DNA from: a virus
Lineage: Duplodnaviria > Heunggongvirae > Uroviricota > Caudoviricetes
Strand: one strand, 5' to 3'
DNA: 37,339 nucleotides
Virus record (IMG/VR): IMGVR_UViG_2585427777_000002
Span: 1-37,339 of that record
In this document: positions 3,015 to 5,786 of the stretch, in pieces
How the letters are laid out: every line of letters begins with the position of its first letter
Position numbering within the stretch: the first letter of the stretch is position 1
Program-made: the position numbers and the translations under genes
Notes under the pieces: model-generated
What the model was told of the DNA's origin: nothing
Seen by the model: the letters and a program-made list of their open reading frames with translations, nothing else
The model's database searches: none

Positions 3015-5786
3015 TTACTCTTTGCTTAACATCTTCTCCCCCTCAAGATATTTGAGACGTTCTTCAATCCTGTCACAACGCCTGCGCTGATAAGCAGCTT
3101 CCAGCCACAAGCATTCATCAACACGTATACCCCAACGGTTTCCGGCCGGAGTAACCAAGGTTTTCTCGCCAGTATCATATTCTTCTTTCTTAATGTAGCT
3201 ATTCTCGACACCGTCCGCATCCGTATAAGTAATGGTAACATCACGCCAAGCCATTACAGGCTCATACTGGTCTTCCCATTCGTCGTAGCACAAAAGCCCG
3301 AAGCGAGTACCATCAATCCCGGCGGCAATAAATGCATCCCGCACCTGCTGCGCAATAATGCCATAATGCCAACGTGCTCTATCAGCGCCCTTAGCATCTA
3401 CAGCTGATAGCCACTGGTAAACGATCAGGTTCACTTTCCCCCATGCGTCAAGTATCGCATCTGGTTCGAAACCCATCGATTCGCTAAGTTGAGATATACT
3501 TAACGGGTCGCTCTTGAAACGCGCGTCTGATGTGTTGATGCTGCCTGTCGTTGCATATACAGTTGTCCACAAGCGTGTGCTGGTTCCACATGAGTATGTG
3601 TTCGTCTTGAACGGGCGCACAGCGCCGAGCACTTCAAGCGGCTGACCAATATAAGCAAGGTCTGTAGACAAAACAGGGGATTTGAATAGCCAGCGTGAGT
3701 TAGTGTAGTCGTAAATGCCCGCATCTCCGGCAGCAGATACATGATACGTAACATCTCGCAGTGGGTTAGCAGTTTCAAACTGAGACGCTGTAGCAGTGGC
3801 ATTAGATAACTTAGCCAGACCACTGGACAATTCAAGGTGATTAGTAACCGAACCATCGTCGTTTATTTTACCGATAGTCAATAAGCCGCTATTAGTTACG
3901 ATATCGTAAGTTGAATCCAGAATAATTCCGGGCTGAGAACTTGACGTAGTCTTAATATGCATGCTCTGTTGCGGCATCAGGGTATAGAATGACGTTTCAC
4001 GACCAGTGTCACCGTCCGGGATACCGTTGGTATTTCCCATTACAAGATCATACCCACCGACAATCATGCGGAAAAACATCGCTTCCGGCTCATATGTCAG
4101 CTTTGTCGGATCTGGAGTTCCGGTATTTTCTGGATCGGCAATATCATACGCACGTCCAGCGCCAGCCTGAATTTGTTGCACGCCAAGATACACTCCGTCC
4201 AGCGTGTACATATGCAAATATTTGCGAGTAGAGGAATACGCAGAGCCAGCCTGACAGAAATAGATTGTTGTTCCGTCACATGCAACAGCCTGCATATCAC
4301 GGATAAAATCAGCTATCTCAAACTCAAAAGTTGCCGCATTACGATAGTCATAGCCGTATTCATCTGGGTTAACGAACACACTGGTATGAAAGACCTTCAC
4401 GTAATAACGCAACTGATCTGGTGTACCAGATTCCTCACCAGGGCCGACATATCGTTTTGCTGTGGTTATTAACCATGTGCTAGTCGGATCAGTGCAAAGC
4501 ACATTTACATGGTTTAAATATGTGTCATCCCAGATTCGGAAAAACTCTGGAGTAATTGCCGCACCGGATACTGGTGTGAATCGGGCAAGGTACTGCGCAC
4601 GTTGATCGCCTTTCGATACTCCTGCCAATCCCCATATCTGCAATCGCCCCCGCGTATTACGGAAACCGATACGACCAATGGTCAATCCCAGTGATTGGTG
4701 CCCTATATCAAAACTACCCTGTGTCTCCCATAGCGGCATCAGCGTATCCTGACCAAACCAGTTATAGGCAACAATTTTATTAATTTCGTCGTTACTAGCT
4801 GCAGAACCGCTGACATTTTGCAGCGTATAAAGAATATTGTCGTAATAATCAAGGACGGCTCCCTGAATTGTCGTGTTTTTAATAGTTGCAAGCCTCAAAC
4901 CAGATTTAACATGATTTGGCGTTGATGGTCTGAAACCGCTAATAACACCTTTTTTTCTTGTCTGCATCCTTGATTCTGGGAATTCATCATCAGGCAACAG
5001 CTTCACTGGATAACGGAAGTAACCATTAAAATATTTATTTTTAGTGAAATCCTTCGTTGTTTGAAAAGTTCTACCCTGCAGATCAATTACTTTCCCTGTA
5101 TGAGATTCTTCAAGGCTCTCAAAAGCAGCATCGTCATTCGTCGCTCTCCCTCCATACTGACCATCACCTACAGCACCAAAATCTTTAGGGCTAACTGTGT
5201 CACGCATCTTATCCTGGAACGTTCTGTATACTGCTCCAGAACCATACTGAATAAACCAACCAAAACCACCAACAACTCCGGCGATTGCAGCATCAACATA
5301 ATTACGCATTGAGCGATTATTTACAGCATCCTGCTCAAGTGATGGATCTGCAAGGTTAGAAATTCTGTTTTGTTTTGCATCGTAATATTTTGCAAGCAGA
5401 GAGGGCTTCATCAATGCACGTCTGAACCACCCAAAACATTGCTGGATCAGCATCGTCAGGTAGTCAAAAGCATCTTCATGCACTTCGGGGAAAAATTTTC
5501 CCTGATTGCGAAGGTCTGTCTCCTGCACTACATCAAGCACACGATCTATCGTAATTCGCCAGCCAGCAGCAAGCGGCGACGGAAGAACCACAGAACCGCC
5601 ACTATAAGTGCCCGCCCCAGTTACCGTATAACCGGTATCCAGAACCAATTCTGTTACGTTCCCGTTCAGGTCAGACACCTGAACAACCAGGTCTGATTTT
5701 CTGAAAATTCGAAAAGTATACGGAAACGATGTCGTAACGCCGTTACCTGTGTATTCGTTGTGGTCAACTTCGGTTGAGACCGTCAT
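3015..5786 (-). CDS. tailspike/tail fibre with T7 gp17-like N-terminal anchor, central beta-helix depolymerase-like domain and C-terminal S74-type self-cleaving chaperone domain
   Basis: 923 aa; N-terminus MTVSTEVDHNEYTGNGVTTSFPYTF; central DFGAVGDGQ motif typical of pectate-lyase-like beta-helix tailspikes; C-terminal SDARFKSD...WHYGIIAQQV typical of endosialidase-type chaperone domains; GGAG RBS. Confidence 0.85.
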   Translation of the reverse strand: MTVSTEVDHNEYTGNGVTTSFPYTFRIFRKSDLVVQVSDLNGNVTELVLDTGYTVTGAGTYSGGSVVLPSPLAAGWRITIDRVLDVVQETDLRNQGKFFPEVHEDAFDYLTMLIQQCFGWFRRALMKPSLLAKYYDAKQNRISNLADPSLEQDAVNNRSMRNYVDAAIAGVVGGFGWFIQYGSGAVYRTFQDKMRDTVSPKDFGAVGDGQYGGRATNDDAAFESLEESHTGKVIDLQGRTFQTTKDFTKNKYFNGYFRYPVKLLPDDEFPESRMQTRKKGVISGFRPSTPNHVKSGLRLATIKNTTIQGAVLDYYDNILYTLQNVSGSAASNDEINKIVAYNWFGQDTLMPLWETQGSFDIGHQSLGLTIGRIGFRNTRGRLQIWGLAGVSKGDQRAQYLARFTPVSGAAITPEFFRIWDDTYLNHVNVLCTDPTSTWLITTAKRYVGPGEESGTPDQLRYYVKVFHTSVFVNPDEYGYDYRNAATFEFEIADFIRDMQAVACDGTTIYFCQAGSAYSSTRKYLHMYTLDGVYLGVQQIQAGAGRAYDIADPENTGTPDPTKLTYEPEAMFFRMIVGGYDLVMGNTNGIPDGDTGRETSFYTLMPQQSMHIKTTSSSQPGIILDSTYDIVTNSGLLTIGKINDDGSVTNHLELSSGLAKLSNATATASQFETANPLRDVTYHVSAAGDAGIYDYTNSRWLFKSPVLSTDLAYIGQPLEVLGAVRPFKTNTYSCGTSTRLWTTVYATTGSINTSDARFKSDPLSISQLSESMGFEPDAILDAWGKVNLIVYQWLSAVDAKGADRARWHYGIIAQQVRDAFIAAGIDGTRFGLLCYDEWEDQYEPVMAWRDVTITYTDADGVENSYIKKEEYDTGEKTLVTPAGNRWGIRVDECLWLEAAYQRRRCDRIEERLKYLEGEKMLSKE

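What the first reader, a model, noticed from the sequence alone, without database searches (positions are those of the whole stretch)
3015..5786. Tailspike with a probable depolymerase domain and self-cleaving C-terminal chaperone
The 923-aa protein joins a T7 gp17-like N-terminal anchor, a central region with a DFGAVGDGQ motif typical of beta-helix polysaccharide depolymerases, and a C-terminal domain matching intramolecular chaperone/S74 peptidase motifs. Its specificity would define host range and pairs logically with the adjacent acyltransferase.
Basis: partly seen in the sequence, partly recalled or inferred. Interest (0 to 1): 0.4.

Follow-up and report, generated by a model that had tools for sequence, protein, structure and literature searches.

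The report
Prophage tailspike with five-bladed propeller

Summary
The 923-aa ORF at 3015..5786 (-) is real. It is the single tailspike of a Uetakevirus-like (epsilon15/phiV10-type) E. coli prophage integrated next to yfgI.

- **Confirmed:** the epsilon15-type N-terminal anchor, the DFGAVGDGQ motif (aa 202-210), and a C-terminal Peptidase_S74 intramolecular chaperone. The chaperone has a Ser753/Lys758 dyad aligned with the cleavage dyad of the K1F endosialidase.
- **The motif:** it lies in an endosialidase-type N-terminal cap. It marks the exact recombination joint at which receptor-binding modules are swapped between related prophages.
- **The pocket:** family-invariant residues (Q308, H363, Q364, Q499, D504, E566, E568) include the counterparts of the proposed sugar pocket of phi11 Gp45. 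Depolymerase activity is plausible but unproven.
- **The neighbour:** the adjacent gene is a NeuO-like O-acetyltransferase. It also occurs next to a very different tailspike, so the pairing is not exclusive. It carries an 8-nt repeat of variable copy number at its 3' end.

Verdict: new member of a known kind, with modest interest.

The parts
3015..5786 (-). Complete tailspike ORF, 923 aa plus stop codon (3015-3017)
   Evidence: ORF list. phrog_1171 tail spike E 1.2e-192. 100% identical in E. coli PAR, where it is annotated 'tail fiber domain-containing protein'.
5523..5786 (-). aa 1-88: N-terminal particle-binding beta-sandwich (epsilon15/phiV10-type anchor; counterpart of Dpo31 domain D1)
   Evidence: 68-71% identity to the epsilon15 and phiV10 tailspike N-termini. 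PDB 28lx Dpo31 aligns aa 1-214 with E 1.8e-34. D1 of Dpo31 is a beta-sandwich, residues 8-87 (PMC13317679). The model has strands 33-82 at pLDDT 66-85.
5184..5522 (-). aa 89-201: helical neck, probably a trimeric coiled coil (counterpart of Dpo31 D2). Together with aa 1-88 this is the conserved anchor shared with other Uetakevirus-like phages.
   Evidence: Helices at 89-94, 104-125, 130-134, 155-170 and 190-195 in the monomer model, at low pLDDT as expected for a trimeric coil. Aligns to the Dpo31 D2 coiled coil. DNA is 95-98% identical to other phages and prophages up to nt 587-627 of the gene.
5157..5183 (-). DFGAVGDGQ motif (aa 202-210): start of the cap module and the recombination joint between anchor and receptor-binding module
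   Evidence: Position. Homology to the APEC O1 K1 prophage stops at nt 5160. Homology to the MLI121 tailspike stops at aa 209. The motif is conserved in 41-45 of 52 family members and in the K1 endosialidase prophage protein P0013.
5001..5183 (-). aa 202-262: End_N_terminal-like cap module
   Evidence: PF12218 is sub-threshold in the query (E 0.0059) but matches 34 of 52 homologues. The profile hits the N-terminus of endoNF 1v0e at E 1.4e-7. Model: helix 219-228, strands 233-242 and 251-262. About 80 of the 136 library hits match only this stretch.
3972..4901 (-). aa 296-605: five-bladed beta-propeller, the receptor-binding (possibly catalytic) domain of the Phage_RBD_prop superfamily. Conserved pocket residues are Q308, D313, H363, Q364, W385, Q499, D504, E566, E568.
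3531..3971 (-). aa 606-752: C-terminal beta stalk leading to the cleavage site, homologous to the endosialidase stalk end
   Evidence: Strands 636-703 at pLDDT 82-89. 3gw6, 9vvr and 7y5s align from aa ~721 onward, and the profile aligns further upstream. There is a weak End_tail_spike hit in the relative P0008.
3018..3530 (-). aa 753-923: Peptidase_S74 C-terminal intramolecular chaperone domain. Predicted autocleavage is before Ser753 (codon 3528-3530), with Lys758 as partner. The released fragment would be 171 aa (19.7 kDa) and the mature spike 752 aa (83.3 kDa).
   Evidence: Pfam E 9.8e-12. 3gw6 E 1.5e-30, with query S753 aligned to the mutated S911A position and K758 to K916. S is conserved in 22 of 27 and K in 22 of 24 aligned homologues. 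Masses. Model pLDDT 83-90.
2915..2941 (.). Bidirectional hairpin terminator between the convergent tailspike and acetyltransferase genes
   Evidence: 10-bp stem with T-rich runs on both strands. Sequence read.
2106..2909 (+). Neighbouring 267-aa hexapeptide (left-handed beta-helix) O-acetyltransferase, NeuO-like. Probable lysogenic-conversion gene. GC 35%.
   Evidence: The best solved relative is 3jqy, the polysialic acid O-acetyltransferase NeuO (E 2.1e-18, aa 66-242). NCBIfam sugar O-acetyltransferase families match below their cut-offs. GC profile. Annotated 'acyltransferase' in EC0026B.
1899..5159 (.). Exchangeable cassette relative to the K1-type sister prophage: the acetyltransferase plus tailspike aa 210-923
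   Evidence: blastn of window 1-7000 against the APEC O1 prophage aligns only 1-1898 and 5160-7000. The APEC O1 prophage has an endosialidase tailspike and no acetyltransferase at this place.

Best explanation
This is the single trimeric tailspike, the receptor-binding protein, of a Uetakevirus-like temperate podovirus of E. coli. From N- to C-terminus it has six parts:
1. A beta-sandwich anchor plus helical neck (aa 1-201) that fixes it to the tail. This part is shared at 93-98% identity with sister phages.
2. A small endosialidase-type cap that begins with DFGAVGDG (aa 202-262).
3. A five-bladed beta-propeller (aa ~296-605), homologous to the 'platform' domain of the staphylococcal phage RBPs phi11 Gp45, 80alpha gp61 and the P68 tail fibre.
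4. A beta stalk (aa ~606-752).
5. A Peptidase_S74 intramolecular chaperone (aa 753-923).

Inferred mechanism. The chaperone domains nucleate trimerisation and folding of the stalk. They then cut themselves off before Ser753 using a Ser753/Lys758 dyad, leaving an 83-kDa mature spike. The three propellers each present a central pocket lined by family-invariant Gln, His, Asp and Glu residues. This pocket binds a sugar of the host's O-antigen or capsule.

I think it somewhat more likely than not (about 0.5-0.55) that the pocket also cleaves or otherwise processes the polymer, so that the short-tailed phage can reach the outer membrane. The receptor-binding part from aa 210 onward is an exchangeable module that sets host range.

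Shown here: the ORF, domain homologies, predicted fold, conservation and module boundaries. Inferred: trimer formation, autocleavage, the glycan receptor and any enzymatic activity.
For: - **ORF and phage context.** The prophage backbone is 97% identical to phage TL-2011b, HEMP4, ZX5, PAS61, phiv142-3 and the O157 typing phages. phiV10 is classified in Uetakevirus.
- **Anchor.** 28lx Dpo31 matches at E 1.8e-34. Its D1/D2/D3/D4 architecture includes an autocleaved 18-kDa D4 (PMC13317679).
- **Pocket.** The invariant Q308, Q364 and Q499 align with Gln165, Thr211 and Gln330, which line the proposed GlcNAc cavity of phi11 Gp45 (with PMC4901313). H363, D504, E566 and E568 are at least 94% conserved among sequences that are only 21-28% identical.
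- **Chaperone.**
- **Whole-architecture precedent.** The best viral structural matches are the Bacillus phage GA-1 neck appendage and the K1E endosialidase.
- **Modularity.** The same propeller is joined to Tail_spike_N, P22 Head_binding and T7_tail anchors. It also occurs in lytic multi-spike and myovirus-type contigs. The joint lies at aa 209.
- **Literature.** Uetakevirus RBP anchors are delimited at about 205 aa, and receptor-modifying genes often follow the RBP (PMC10408124).
Against: - No experimental datum exists for this protein or any close relative that I could find.
- The query itself does not reach the Pfam thresholds for PF21311, PF12218 or PF03906. Those assignments rest on profiles, relatives and predicted structure.
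- The models are monomers, so trimer-dependent parts (neck, stalk, region 725-752) have low confidence.
- All solved homologues of the propeller are described as receptor-binding domains with no demonstrated catalysis (PMC4901313, PMC6795507, PMC12917162).
- The conserved residues could be structural.
- The receptor is unidentified. No serotype was found for the two host strains.
Confidence: 0.8

Rival explanations
1. The propeller is a purely lectin-like receptor-binding platform with no enzymatic activity, as currently assumed for phi11 Gp45, the P68 tail fibre and NF5 gp18. The spike only docks the phage to a surface glycan. Everything else (anchor, stalk, S74 chaperone) is as in the best explanation.
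For: The closest homologues by sequence profile and by fold are all described as receptor-binding platforms with a monosaccharide-sized cavity and no reported catalysis. The query matches no CAZy-type Pfam or NCBIfam family. The 2025 Klebsiella prophage depolymerase paper calls the role of n-bladed propellers in phages 'unclear' and notes that it can go beyond catalysis (PMC12491483).
Against: In this same phage backbone the interchangeable module in K1 strains is annotated as an endosialidase, and the epsilon15 and phiV10 tailspikes are held to be O-antigen-degrading enzymes (for the annotation; the enzymology is my own knowledge). A short-tailed podovirus normally needs to cut through O-antigen or capsule. 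Invariant His, Asp and Glu-x-Glu at the inner strands of the blades, across about 20% identity, is the pattern of an active site as much as of a binding site. The next-best folds are five-bladed glycoside hydrolases.
Confidence: 0.4
2. One reading: the central region (aa ~150-750) is a right-handed parallel beta-helix polysaccharide depolymerase of the P22, HK620 or pectate-lyase type, signalled by the DFGAVGDGQ motif.
For: The DFGAxGDG motif does occur at the N-terminal cap of pectate-lyase-like beta-helices. The family profile gives short hits, confined to the motif, to polygalacturonases, a beta-1,3-glucanase and beta-helix tailspikes. PF12708 gives weak motif-only hits in relatives. Sister Uetakevirus tailspikes (epsilon15 type) are annotated as beta-helix proteins.
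Confidence: 0.03
3. The gene is a decaying or non-functional remnant of a cryptic prophage, so the domain analysis has no current biological role.
For: It sits in a prophage in bacterial chromosomes. The exact tailspike is rare, occurring in 2 strains among 5426 complete E. coli genomes.
Against: The ORF is intact with a Shine-Dalgarno sequence and a terminator. It is 98.5-100% conserved between unrelated strains from China and the UK. The surrounding ~37-kb prophage is collinear with, and 97% identical to, the phage record TL-2011b over 92% of a 24-kb test segment. All catalytic and structural motifs of the S74 domain are intact.
Confidence: 0.05

Closest known systems
K1F / K1E / CUS-type endosialidase tailspikes (endoNF; PDB 1v0e, 3gvj, 3gw6)
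   Same: The overall plan is the same: phage-specific N-terminal anchor, End_N_terminal cap starting with DFGAxGDG, one beta-propeller per subunit, beta stalk, then a Peptidase_S74 chaperone cleaved at a Ser-x4-Lys site. 3gw6 aligns at E 1.5e-30 and the endoNF N-terminus at 1.4e-7. Foldseek gives E 1.9e-7 to 3gvj. In sister prophages at the same chromosomal site the endosialidase module replaces this one from aa 210 onward.
   Different: The propeller here has five blades and belongs to a different sequence family. There is no End_beta_propel (PF12217) match and no lectin-like barrel insert. The substrate is unknown, and no sialidase motifs were detected.
Staphylococcal and Brochothrix phage receptor-binding proteins with a five-bladed 'platform' (phi11 Gp45 5efv, 80alpha gp61 6v8i, P68 tail fibre 6iab, NF5 RBP 9m7x); Pfam PF21311 Phage_RBD_prop
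   Different: Those proteins come from phages of Gram-positive hosts. They have a coiled-coil stem before the propeller and 'tower' domains after it, and no S74 chaperone. Here the propeller is framed by an endosialidase-type cap, stalk and chaperone on an enterobacterial podovirus anchor. The query itself is below the Pfam threshold for PF21311.
Uetakevirus tailspikes (Salmonella phage epsilon15 gp20, E. coli phage phiV10 tail fibre)
   Same: The same phage lineage and the same anchor: aa 1-165 are 68-71% identical. The genome position is the same, and a receptor-modifying gene follows the spike (PMC10408124).
   Different: The receptor-binding parts are unrelated. Similarity ends by aa ~165-210. 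Records of epsilon15-type phages (e.g. VB_ST_E15) annotate this tailspike as a beta-helix protein. The phiV10 modification enzyme is a membrane acyltransferase-3 protein (my own knowledge, and the topic of PMC9558356 listed), whereas here it is a soluble hexapeptide acetyltransferase.
Dpo31 tailspike of the marine Cobetia podovirus Carin-1 (PDB 28lx)
   Same: It is the best solved relative of the N-terminal 214 aa (E 1.8e-34). It has the same four-part logic of D1 anchor, D2 coiled coil, D3 receptor domain and an autocleaved ~18-kDa D4.
   Different: Beyond the N-terminal 214 aa, only a short motif-region stretch of Dpo31 (query aa 183-252) aligned with the query.
Bacillus phage GA-1 neck appendage protein (BFVD Q9FZW3; its chaperone is PDB 3gud)
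   Same: It is the best match among predicted viral structures (E 2.9e-19 over 539 columns). Its C-terminal chaperone is homologous (3gud E 4.8e-16).
   Different: It comes from a Gram-positive phi29-like phage with a different anchor. Sequence identity is 13%.

Membership tests
Peptidase_S74 / C-terminal intramolecular chaperone domain (endosialidase-type) | Match to Pfam PF13884 above the curated threshold | tested here: met
   45.4 bits against a cut-off of 22, E 9.8e-12, aa 753-823.
Peptidase_S74 / C-terminal intramolecular chaperone domain (endosialidase-type) | Cleavage serine and partner lysine (Ser-x4-Lys) aligned with S911/K916 of endoNF | tested here: met
   In NTS753DARFK758, S753 aligns with the S911A position of 3gw6 and K758 with K916. 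S is conserved in 22 of 27 and K in 22 of 24 aligned homologues. The role of the dyad itself is from my own knowledge of the endoNF literature.
Peptidase_S74 / C-terminal intramolecular chaperone domain (endosialidase-type) | Homology over the whole chaperone domain to solved examples | tested here: met
   3gw6 E 1.5e-30 (aa 721-915), 9vvr 5.5e-34, 3gud 4.8e-16, 4uw8 2.4e-8. Model pLDDT 83-90 over aa 760-910.
Peptidase_S74 / C-terminal intramolecular chaperone domain (endosialidase-type) | Actual autoproteolytic release after trimerisation | not testable with these tools
   This needs SDS-PAGE of recombinant wild-type, S753A and K758A protein. The expected fragments are 83.3 and 19.7 kDa.
Right-handed beta-helix depolymerase (pectate-lyase-like tailspike) | Beta-helix repeat region detectable by profile (Beta_helix / Pectate_lyase_3 / PF12708) | tested here: not met
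   No such family matches the query at E<=0.01, or at E<=10 for the sub-domains. Relatives give only motif-length hits.
Right-handed beta-helix depolymerase (pectate-lyase-like tailspike) | Predicted or solved beta-helix fold of the central domain | tested here: not met
Right-handed beta-helix depolymerase (pectate-lyase-like tailspike) | DFGAxGDG N-cap motif | tested here: met
   It is present at aa 202-210. It is not specific, because it also precedes the sialidase propeller of P0013 and lies within End_N_terminal matches.
Phage_RBD_prop (PF21311) five-bladed receptor-binding propeller | Pfam match above threshold in the protein itself | tested here: not met
   The query has no PF21311 hit even at E<=10. 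25 of 52 homologues in alignment A1 do match, with best E 2.4e-12.
Phage_RBD_prop (PF21311) five-bladed receptor-binding propeller | Profile-level homology to the solved founders (phi11 Gp45, 80alpha gp61, P68 fibre) | tested here: met
   Propeller-only profile A2: 5efv 3.1e-14 over profile positions 46-326, 6v8i 1.4e-13, 6iac 2.5e-13, 9m7x 1.4e-8.
Phage_RBD_prop (PF21311) five-bladed receptor-binding propeller | Five-bladed propeller fold closest to those structures | tested here: met
Phage_RBD_prop (PF21311) five-bladed receptor-binding propeller | Conserved central-cavity residues | tested here: met
   Q308, Q364 and Q499 (with I307 and M498) align to Gln165, Thr211 and Gln330 (with Met164 and Met329) of phi11 Gp45 (PMC4901313). 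They are at least 94% conserved in the family.
Phage T7 gp17 N-terminal tail-fibre anchor (PF03906) | Pfam match above threshold | tested here: not met
   18.6 bits against a cut-off of 25.2, E 0.0016, and only aa 135-161 align well. A relative with the same type of anchor, P0012, just passes at 25.9 bits. A distant relationship is therefore likely, but membership is not established.
Uetakevirus (epsilon15/phiV10-like) tailspike anchor | N-terminal ~165-205 aa homologous to epsilon15 gp20 and the phiV10 RBP, within a Uetakevirus-like genome | tested here: met
   68-71% identity over aa 1-165. The backbone is 97% identical to TL-2011b, ZX5, PAS61 and the O157 typing phages. ZX5 is described as a Uetakevirus (PMC9782041 abstract).
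Endosialidase (GH58) tailspike | Six-bladed End_beta_propel catalytic domain (PF12217) | tested here: not met
   PF12217 does not match the query or any of the 52 family members. The propeller has five blades.
Polysaccharide depolymerase (functional class) | Demonstrated or signature-supported glycan-cleaving active site | tested here: inconclusive

The most novel reading that the evidence does not exclude
The invariant Gln/His/Gln/Gln/Asp/Glu-x-Glu pocket is shared by this enterobacterial tailspike family and by the staphylococcal phi11, 80alpha and P68 'platform' domains. It could be the active site of an undescribed family of glycan-processing enzymes (hydrolase, lyase or esterase). In that case the phi11-type receptor-binding propellers, now treated as lectins, would be enzymes in phages of both Gram-negative and Gram-positive hosts.
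Probability: 0.2. Interest if true: 0.6.

Novelty: new member of a known kind. Interest (0 to 1): 0.3.

Why it matters
- **Host range.** The spike sets the host range of a temperate E. coli phage lineage. The same backbone carries the K1 endosialidase in pathogenic K1 strains.
- **Annotation practice.** The DFGAVGDG motif cannot be used to call a beta-helix depolymerase. It marks the module joint and occurs in front of at least three different folds.
- **Experimental handle.** Propeller-type spikes are the second most common predicted 'depolymerase' fold in prophages, yet their activity is essentially untested (PMC12491483). This protein is soluble-looking, single-spike and prophage-borne, has two sequenced natural hosts, and has a clearly predicted pocket. 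It is therefore a convenient case for asking whether phi11-type propellers bind glycans or cut them.
- **Applications.** It is also a candidate specificity module for engineered phages or tailocins, once its O or K target is known.

Tried and rejected
- **Beta-helix hypothesis.** I looked for Pfam, PHROG and NCBIfam beta-helix or pectate-lyase matches and for beta-helix structural neighbours. There were none beyond the motif. Rejected.
- **T7 gp17 membership.** Only a sub-threshold Pfam hit, so I kept it as a distant relationship and not as membership.
- **Identifying the receptor from the hosts.** A search for 'strain PAR' with 'cockatoo' found nothing. The EC0026B papers give only ST484 and bloodstream origin, with no O or K type. 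I did not walk the chromosomes to the rfb or kps loci, because assigning a serogroup would have needed reference O-antigen sequences that I do not hold.
- **Published evidence on propeller depolymerases.** DepoCatalog and the Klebsiella RBP-modularity preprint do not mention propellers. DepoScope and the Klebsiella lysogen paper list n-bladed propellers as a predicted fold only. A search for PF21311, five-bladed and tailspike gave only staphylococcal work.
- **Strict co-inheritance of spike module and acetyltransferase.** This was supported against the APEC O1 prophage. It was then weakened, because the same acetyltransferase lies beside a different 1024-aa spike in five genomes. In lytic and myovirus contexts the propeller has no acetyltransferase neighbour.
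- **Limits of the tools.** Model coordinates cannot be inspected. The placement of conserved residues in the pocket therefore rests on strand positions and on the alignment to phi11, not on measured distances.

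
Full report
**Observation**

The window has an uninterrupted ATG-to-stop ORF of 923 codons at exactly 3015..5786 on the minus strand. A GGAG lies 9 nt upstream of the ATG. A 10-bp bidirectional hairpin terminator at 2915-2941 separates the ORF from a convergent plus-strand ORF at 2106..2909. The motif DFGAVGDGQ occurs once, at aa 202-210.

PHROGs assigns the protein to tail-spike families (phrog_1171, E 1.2e-192). Pfam finds one domain above threshold: Peptidase_S74, aa 753-823, 45.4 bits against a cut-off of 22. The protein is 100% identical to a 'tail fiber domain-containing protein' of E. coli PAR. It is 98.5% identical at DNA level in E. coli EC0026B.

**Context**

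The window is a prophage. A 24-kb segment (10000-34000) is 97% identical over 92% of its length to Escherichia phage TL-2011b. It is 97-98% identical over 54-71% to HEMP4, vB_EcoP_ZX5, PAS61, phiv142-3 and the O157 typing phages 9 and 10. These are epsilon15/phiV10-like podoviruses. phiV10 is classified in Uetakevirus, and ZX5 is described as a Uetakevirus.

In PAR, EC0026B, APEC O1 and MLI121 the prophage sits at the same chromosomal site, next to yfgI-yfgH-yfgG-pdeF. The gene order is: tail genes, BRO-N genes, tailspike, optional acetyltransferase, two holins, GH19 endolysin, DUF2514 spanin-like gene.

**N-terminal part (aa 1-201)**

- Residues 1-165 are 68-71% identical to the tailspikes of epsilon15 and phiV10.
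- Residues 1-209 are 93-98% identical to those of coliphages HEMP4 and EC.W1-9. DNA identity over this stretch is about 96% to ZX5 and phiv142-3.
- The best solved relative is the tailspike Dpo31 of the marine podovirus Carin-1 (28lx, E 1.8e-34, aa 1-214).
- In Dpo31, D1 is a beta-sandwich (residues 8-87) and D2 is a trimeric coiled coil. D1 contacts the virion, and an 18-kDa C-terminal D4 is autocleaved (PMC13317679).
- The full-length AlphaFold2 model gives strands at 33-82 (pLDDT 66-85). Low-confidence helices follow at 89-195, as expected for a monomer model of a trimeric coil.
- The T7 gp17 N-terminal family (PF03906) matches only below threshold: 18.6 bits against 25.2. A relative with the same anchor type, P0012, just passes at 25.9 bits.

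'T7 gp17-like' is therefore at most a distant relationship. The anchor is of the epsilon15/phiV10 type. A published analysis of E. coli RBPs delimits the Uetakevirus anchor at the first 205 aa of the phiV10 RBP (PMC10408124). That agrees with the boundary found here.

**The motif and the cap (aa 202-262)**

DNA similarity to other phages and prophages stops at nt 587-627 of the gene. Against the sister prophage of APEC O1, homology covers window 1-1898 and 5160-7000 only. Against the MLI121 tailspike, protein identity is 95% over aa 1-209 and then collapses.

The joint therefore falls on DFGAVGDG itself. The motif starts a small module that matches Pfam End_N_terminal, the N-terminal extension of endosialidases. 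The match is weak in the query (E 0.0059) but is found in 34 of 52 homologues. The family profile hits the first 50 residues of the endoNF crystal construct at E 1.4e-7.

The K1-prophage protein P0013 has the same anchor and 'SPKDFGAVGDG', followed by End_N_terminal and the six-bladed sialidase propeller. In the exhaustive library search, about 80 of the 136 matching clusters align only to this ~75-residue stretch. The same short motif also gives motif-only hits to polygalacturonases and beta-helix tailspikes.

Hence the motif is a shared cap and junction element placed in front of several different folds. It is not evidence for a beta-helix.

**Central domain (aa ~296-605)**

No Pfam or NCBIfam family matches this region. 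A search of 5.8 billion proteins found eight relatives at 67-100% identity and a few at 26-39%. The exhaustive search of 1.84 billion representatives found 136 clusters at E<=1e-3, of which 40 are at E<=1e-10.

An AlphaFold2 model of aa 185-735, built with a 52-sequence alignment, is confident (mean pLDDT 84, pTM 0.78) and all-beta. Its strands form five four-stranded blades. The last blade is probably closed by an N-terminal strand.

| Search | Best matches |
|---|---|
| Foldseek vs PDB | phi11, NF5, P68 and 80alpha at E 3e-11 to 9e-10; then endoNF at 1.9e-7 |
| Foldseek vs predicted viral structures | Bacillus phage GA-1 neck appendage E 2.9e-19; then K1E endosialidase |
| Propeller-only sequence profile vs PDB | 5efv 3.1e-14; 6v8i 1.4e-13; 6iac 2.5e-13; 9m7x 1.4e-8 |

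In addition, 25 of 52 homologues match Pfam PF21311, 'Phage 5-bladed beta propeller receptor binding platform domain'. No beta-helix appears in any of these lists.

**The pocket**

Family members are only 21-28% identical to the query, yet a set of polar residues is almost invariant: Q308, H363, Q364, W385, D480, Q499, D504, Y509, E566 and E568. D313 and R402 are conserved in 75-83% of members. Most of them lie at or just before the first, innermost strand of successive blades.

In the profile alignment to phi11 Gp45, chain numbering equals native numbering plus 12. On that basis:
- I307-Q308 align with Met164-Gln165.
- H363 and Q364 align with His and Thr211.
- M498-Q499 align with Met329-Gln330.
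- E566-P-E568 align with E-A-E.

Gln165, Thr211, Gln330, Met164 and Met329 are exactly the residues reported to line the cavity proposed to hold GlcNAc in phi11 Gp45 (PMC4901313). The invariant residues of this family therefore mark the central pocket. This step is inferred from alignment, because model coordinates cannot be inspected with these tools.

Whether the pocket only binds or also cuts is open. All solved homologues are described as receptor-binding platforms without demonstrated catalysis. The literature on predicted phage depolymerases lists n-bladed propellers as the second commonest fold but calls their properties in phages unclear (PMC12491483; PMC11326577).

Three points favour catalysis:
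- The alternative module of the K1 sister prophage is annotated as an endosialidase. The epsilon15 and phiV10 spikes are held to be O-antigen-degrading enzymes (my own knowledge).
- A short-tailed virion needs to cut through the polysaccharide layer.
- The pocket has an acidic and histidine character, and the fold resembles five-bladed glycosidases.

I put enzymatic processing at about 0.5-0.55.

**Stalk and chaperone (aa ~606-923)**

Strands at 636-703 are modelled with pLDDT 82-89. From aa ~721 the sequence aligns with the end of the endoNF stalk plus its C-terminal intramolecular chaperone domain (3gw6, E 1.5e-30, aa 721-915). It also aligns with other solved chaperone-bearing fibres: 9vvr, 3gud, 6eu4, 7y5s and 4uw8.

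In that alignment Ser753 of 'NTS753DARFK758' falls on the S911A position of 3gw6, and Lys758 falls on K916. Among homologues with this region, Ser is present in 22 of 27 and Lys in 22 of 24. The predicted products are an 83.3-kDa mature chain (aa 1-752) and a 19.7-kDa released fragment of 171 aa. The released fragment is close in size to the 18-kDa D4 of Dpo31.

Cleavage itself is untested.

**Modularity**

The same propeller-stalk-chaperone module (67-79% identity) is fused to other anchors:
- Tail_spike_N of ViI/CBA120-type phages (P0002, P0004).
- The P22 head-binding domain (P0006).
- The T7 tail-fibre N-terminus (P0008).

It also occurs next to other tailspikes in a lytic-type contig (L005) and beside baseplate genes in myovirus-like contigs (L006, L007). 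In the latter, P0005 lacks the S74 domain. This is the classical mosaic behaviour of receptor-binding modules.

**The neighbouring gene**

ORF 2106..2909 (+) encodes a 267-aa protein in a region of 35% GC. Its best solved relative is NeuO, the prophage-borne polysialic-acid O-acetyltransferase of E. coli K1 (3jqy, E 2.1e-18 over aa 66-242). Weaker matches go to many sugar O-acetyltransferase families.

Relative to the APEC O1 prophage, the acetyltransferase and the spike from aa 210 onward form one replaced block, window 1899-5159. Uetakeviruses are known to carry receptor-modifying genes behind the RBP.

However, the acetyltransferase gene occurs in 11 of 5426 complete E. coli genomes. Six of these (two strains) carry this spike. 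In the other five it lies beside a 1024-aa spike that shares only the anchor, plus faint propeller and S74 similarity. A functional pairing through lysogenic conversion of the receptor is plausible, but it is not exclusive to this spike.

**Comparison and verdict**

The protein works like an endosialidase-type tailspike in its assembly logic, and like a phi11-type receptor-binding protein in its recognition domain.
- It is a member of the Peptidase_S74 family and of the Uetakevirus anchor family.
- It is a member of the Phage_RBD_prop superfamily at profile and fold level, although the query misses the Pfam threshold.
- It is not a beta-helix depolymerase and not a GH58 endosialidase.

I found no experimental work on any enterobacterial member of this propeller family. 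The fold class is already catalogued (Pfam PF21311, DepoScope), so this is a new member of a known kind. Interest is modest at 0.3.

The main value is threefold: a corrected annotation rule (motif does not mean beta-helix), a clean module boundary, and a tractable test case for whether phi11-type propellers are lectins or enzymes.

Noticed in passing
window 2881-2902 (3' end of the acetyltransferase ORF 2106..2909, + strand); L001 10893-11063; L008 5882-6217: There is an octanucleotide repeat tract (GCACAGCA)n just before the stop codon of the NeuO-like acetyltransferase. The window and EC0026B have about 3 imperfect copies and a 267-aa protein. E. coli PAR has about 23 copies and a 381-aa ORF that reads through into the tailspike 3' end. 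MLI121 has about 42 copies and a 374-aa protein. The tract is translated as (AAQQHSST)n. It recalls the heptanucleotide repeat of NeuO, which lies at the 5' end (my own knowledge). Here the catalytic domain stays intact and only the C-terminal tail changes.
   Followed up: partly
L008 6282-9356 (E. coli MLI121) and four other genomes: The same acetyltransferase (99.4% DNA identity) lies beside a different 1024-aa tailspike. That spike shares aa 1-209 (95%) with this one. Beyond that it has only faint Phage_RBD_prop (E 0.0016) and S74 (31% identity) similarity. The homology between the two prophages ends at the repeat tract.
   Followed up: partly
L003 (E. coli APEC O1, NC_008563 2738034-2750660) and other K1 strains listed: K1 strains (APEC O1, CE10 O7:K1, O1:K1:H7 isolates) carry a sister prophage at the same yfgI site. 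Its tailspike has the same 209-aa anchor fused to an endosialidase propeller, and there is no acetyltransferase between the spike and the holin.
   Followed up: partly
window 6508..7245 (+) and 8253..8903 (-): Two ORFs in opposite orientation (245 and 216 aa; a BRO-N domain protein is annotated at the corresponding place in PAR) end in an identical stretch of about 90 aa...YSAPLKPGYRSLIHSPSGVLGLTENSLL...DKAGFF. ORF 5859..6239 has a related C-terminus (phrog_450; weak match to an anti-repressor PHROG). This looks like a duplicated or inverted module upstream of the tailspike.
   Followed up: no
window 1..7000 versus L001 (E. coli PAR): The window is not identical to the PAR chromosome. Identity is 99.0-99.9%, with the repeat-tract difference. 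Upstream of about 6270 the two prophages diverge further (84-98% in patches). The window therefore comes from a close relative of PAR or from another lysogen.
   Followed up: no
window 1226..1946 and 128..1299 (- strand): The lysis cassette lies downstream of the spike: two holin-like ORFs (Phage_holin_8), a GH19-type endolysin (230 aa from a TTG start in the ORF list, annotated as 630 nt in PAR), and a DUF2514 protein with an embedded out-of-frame ORF (136..411), as in Rz/Rz1-type spanin pairs.
   Followed up: no
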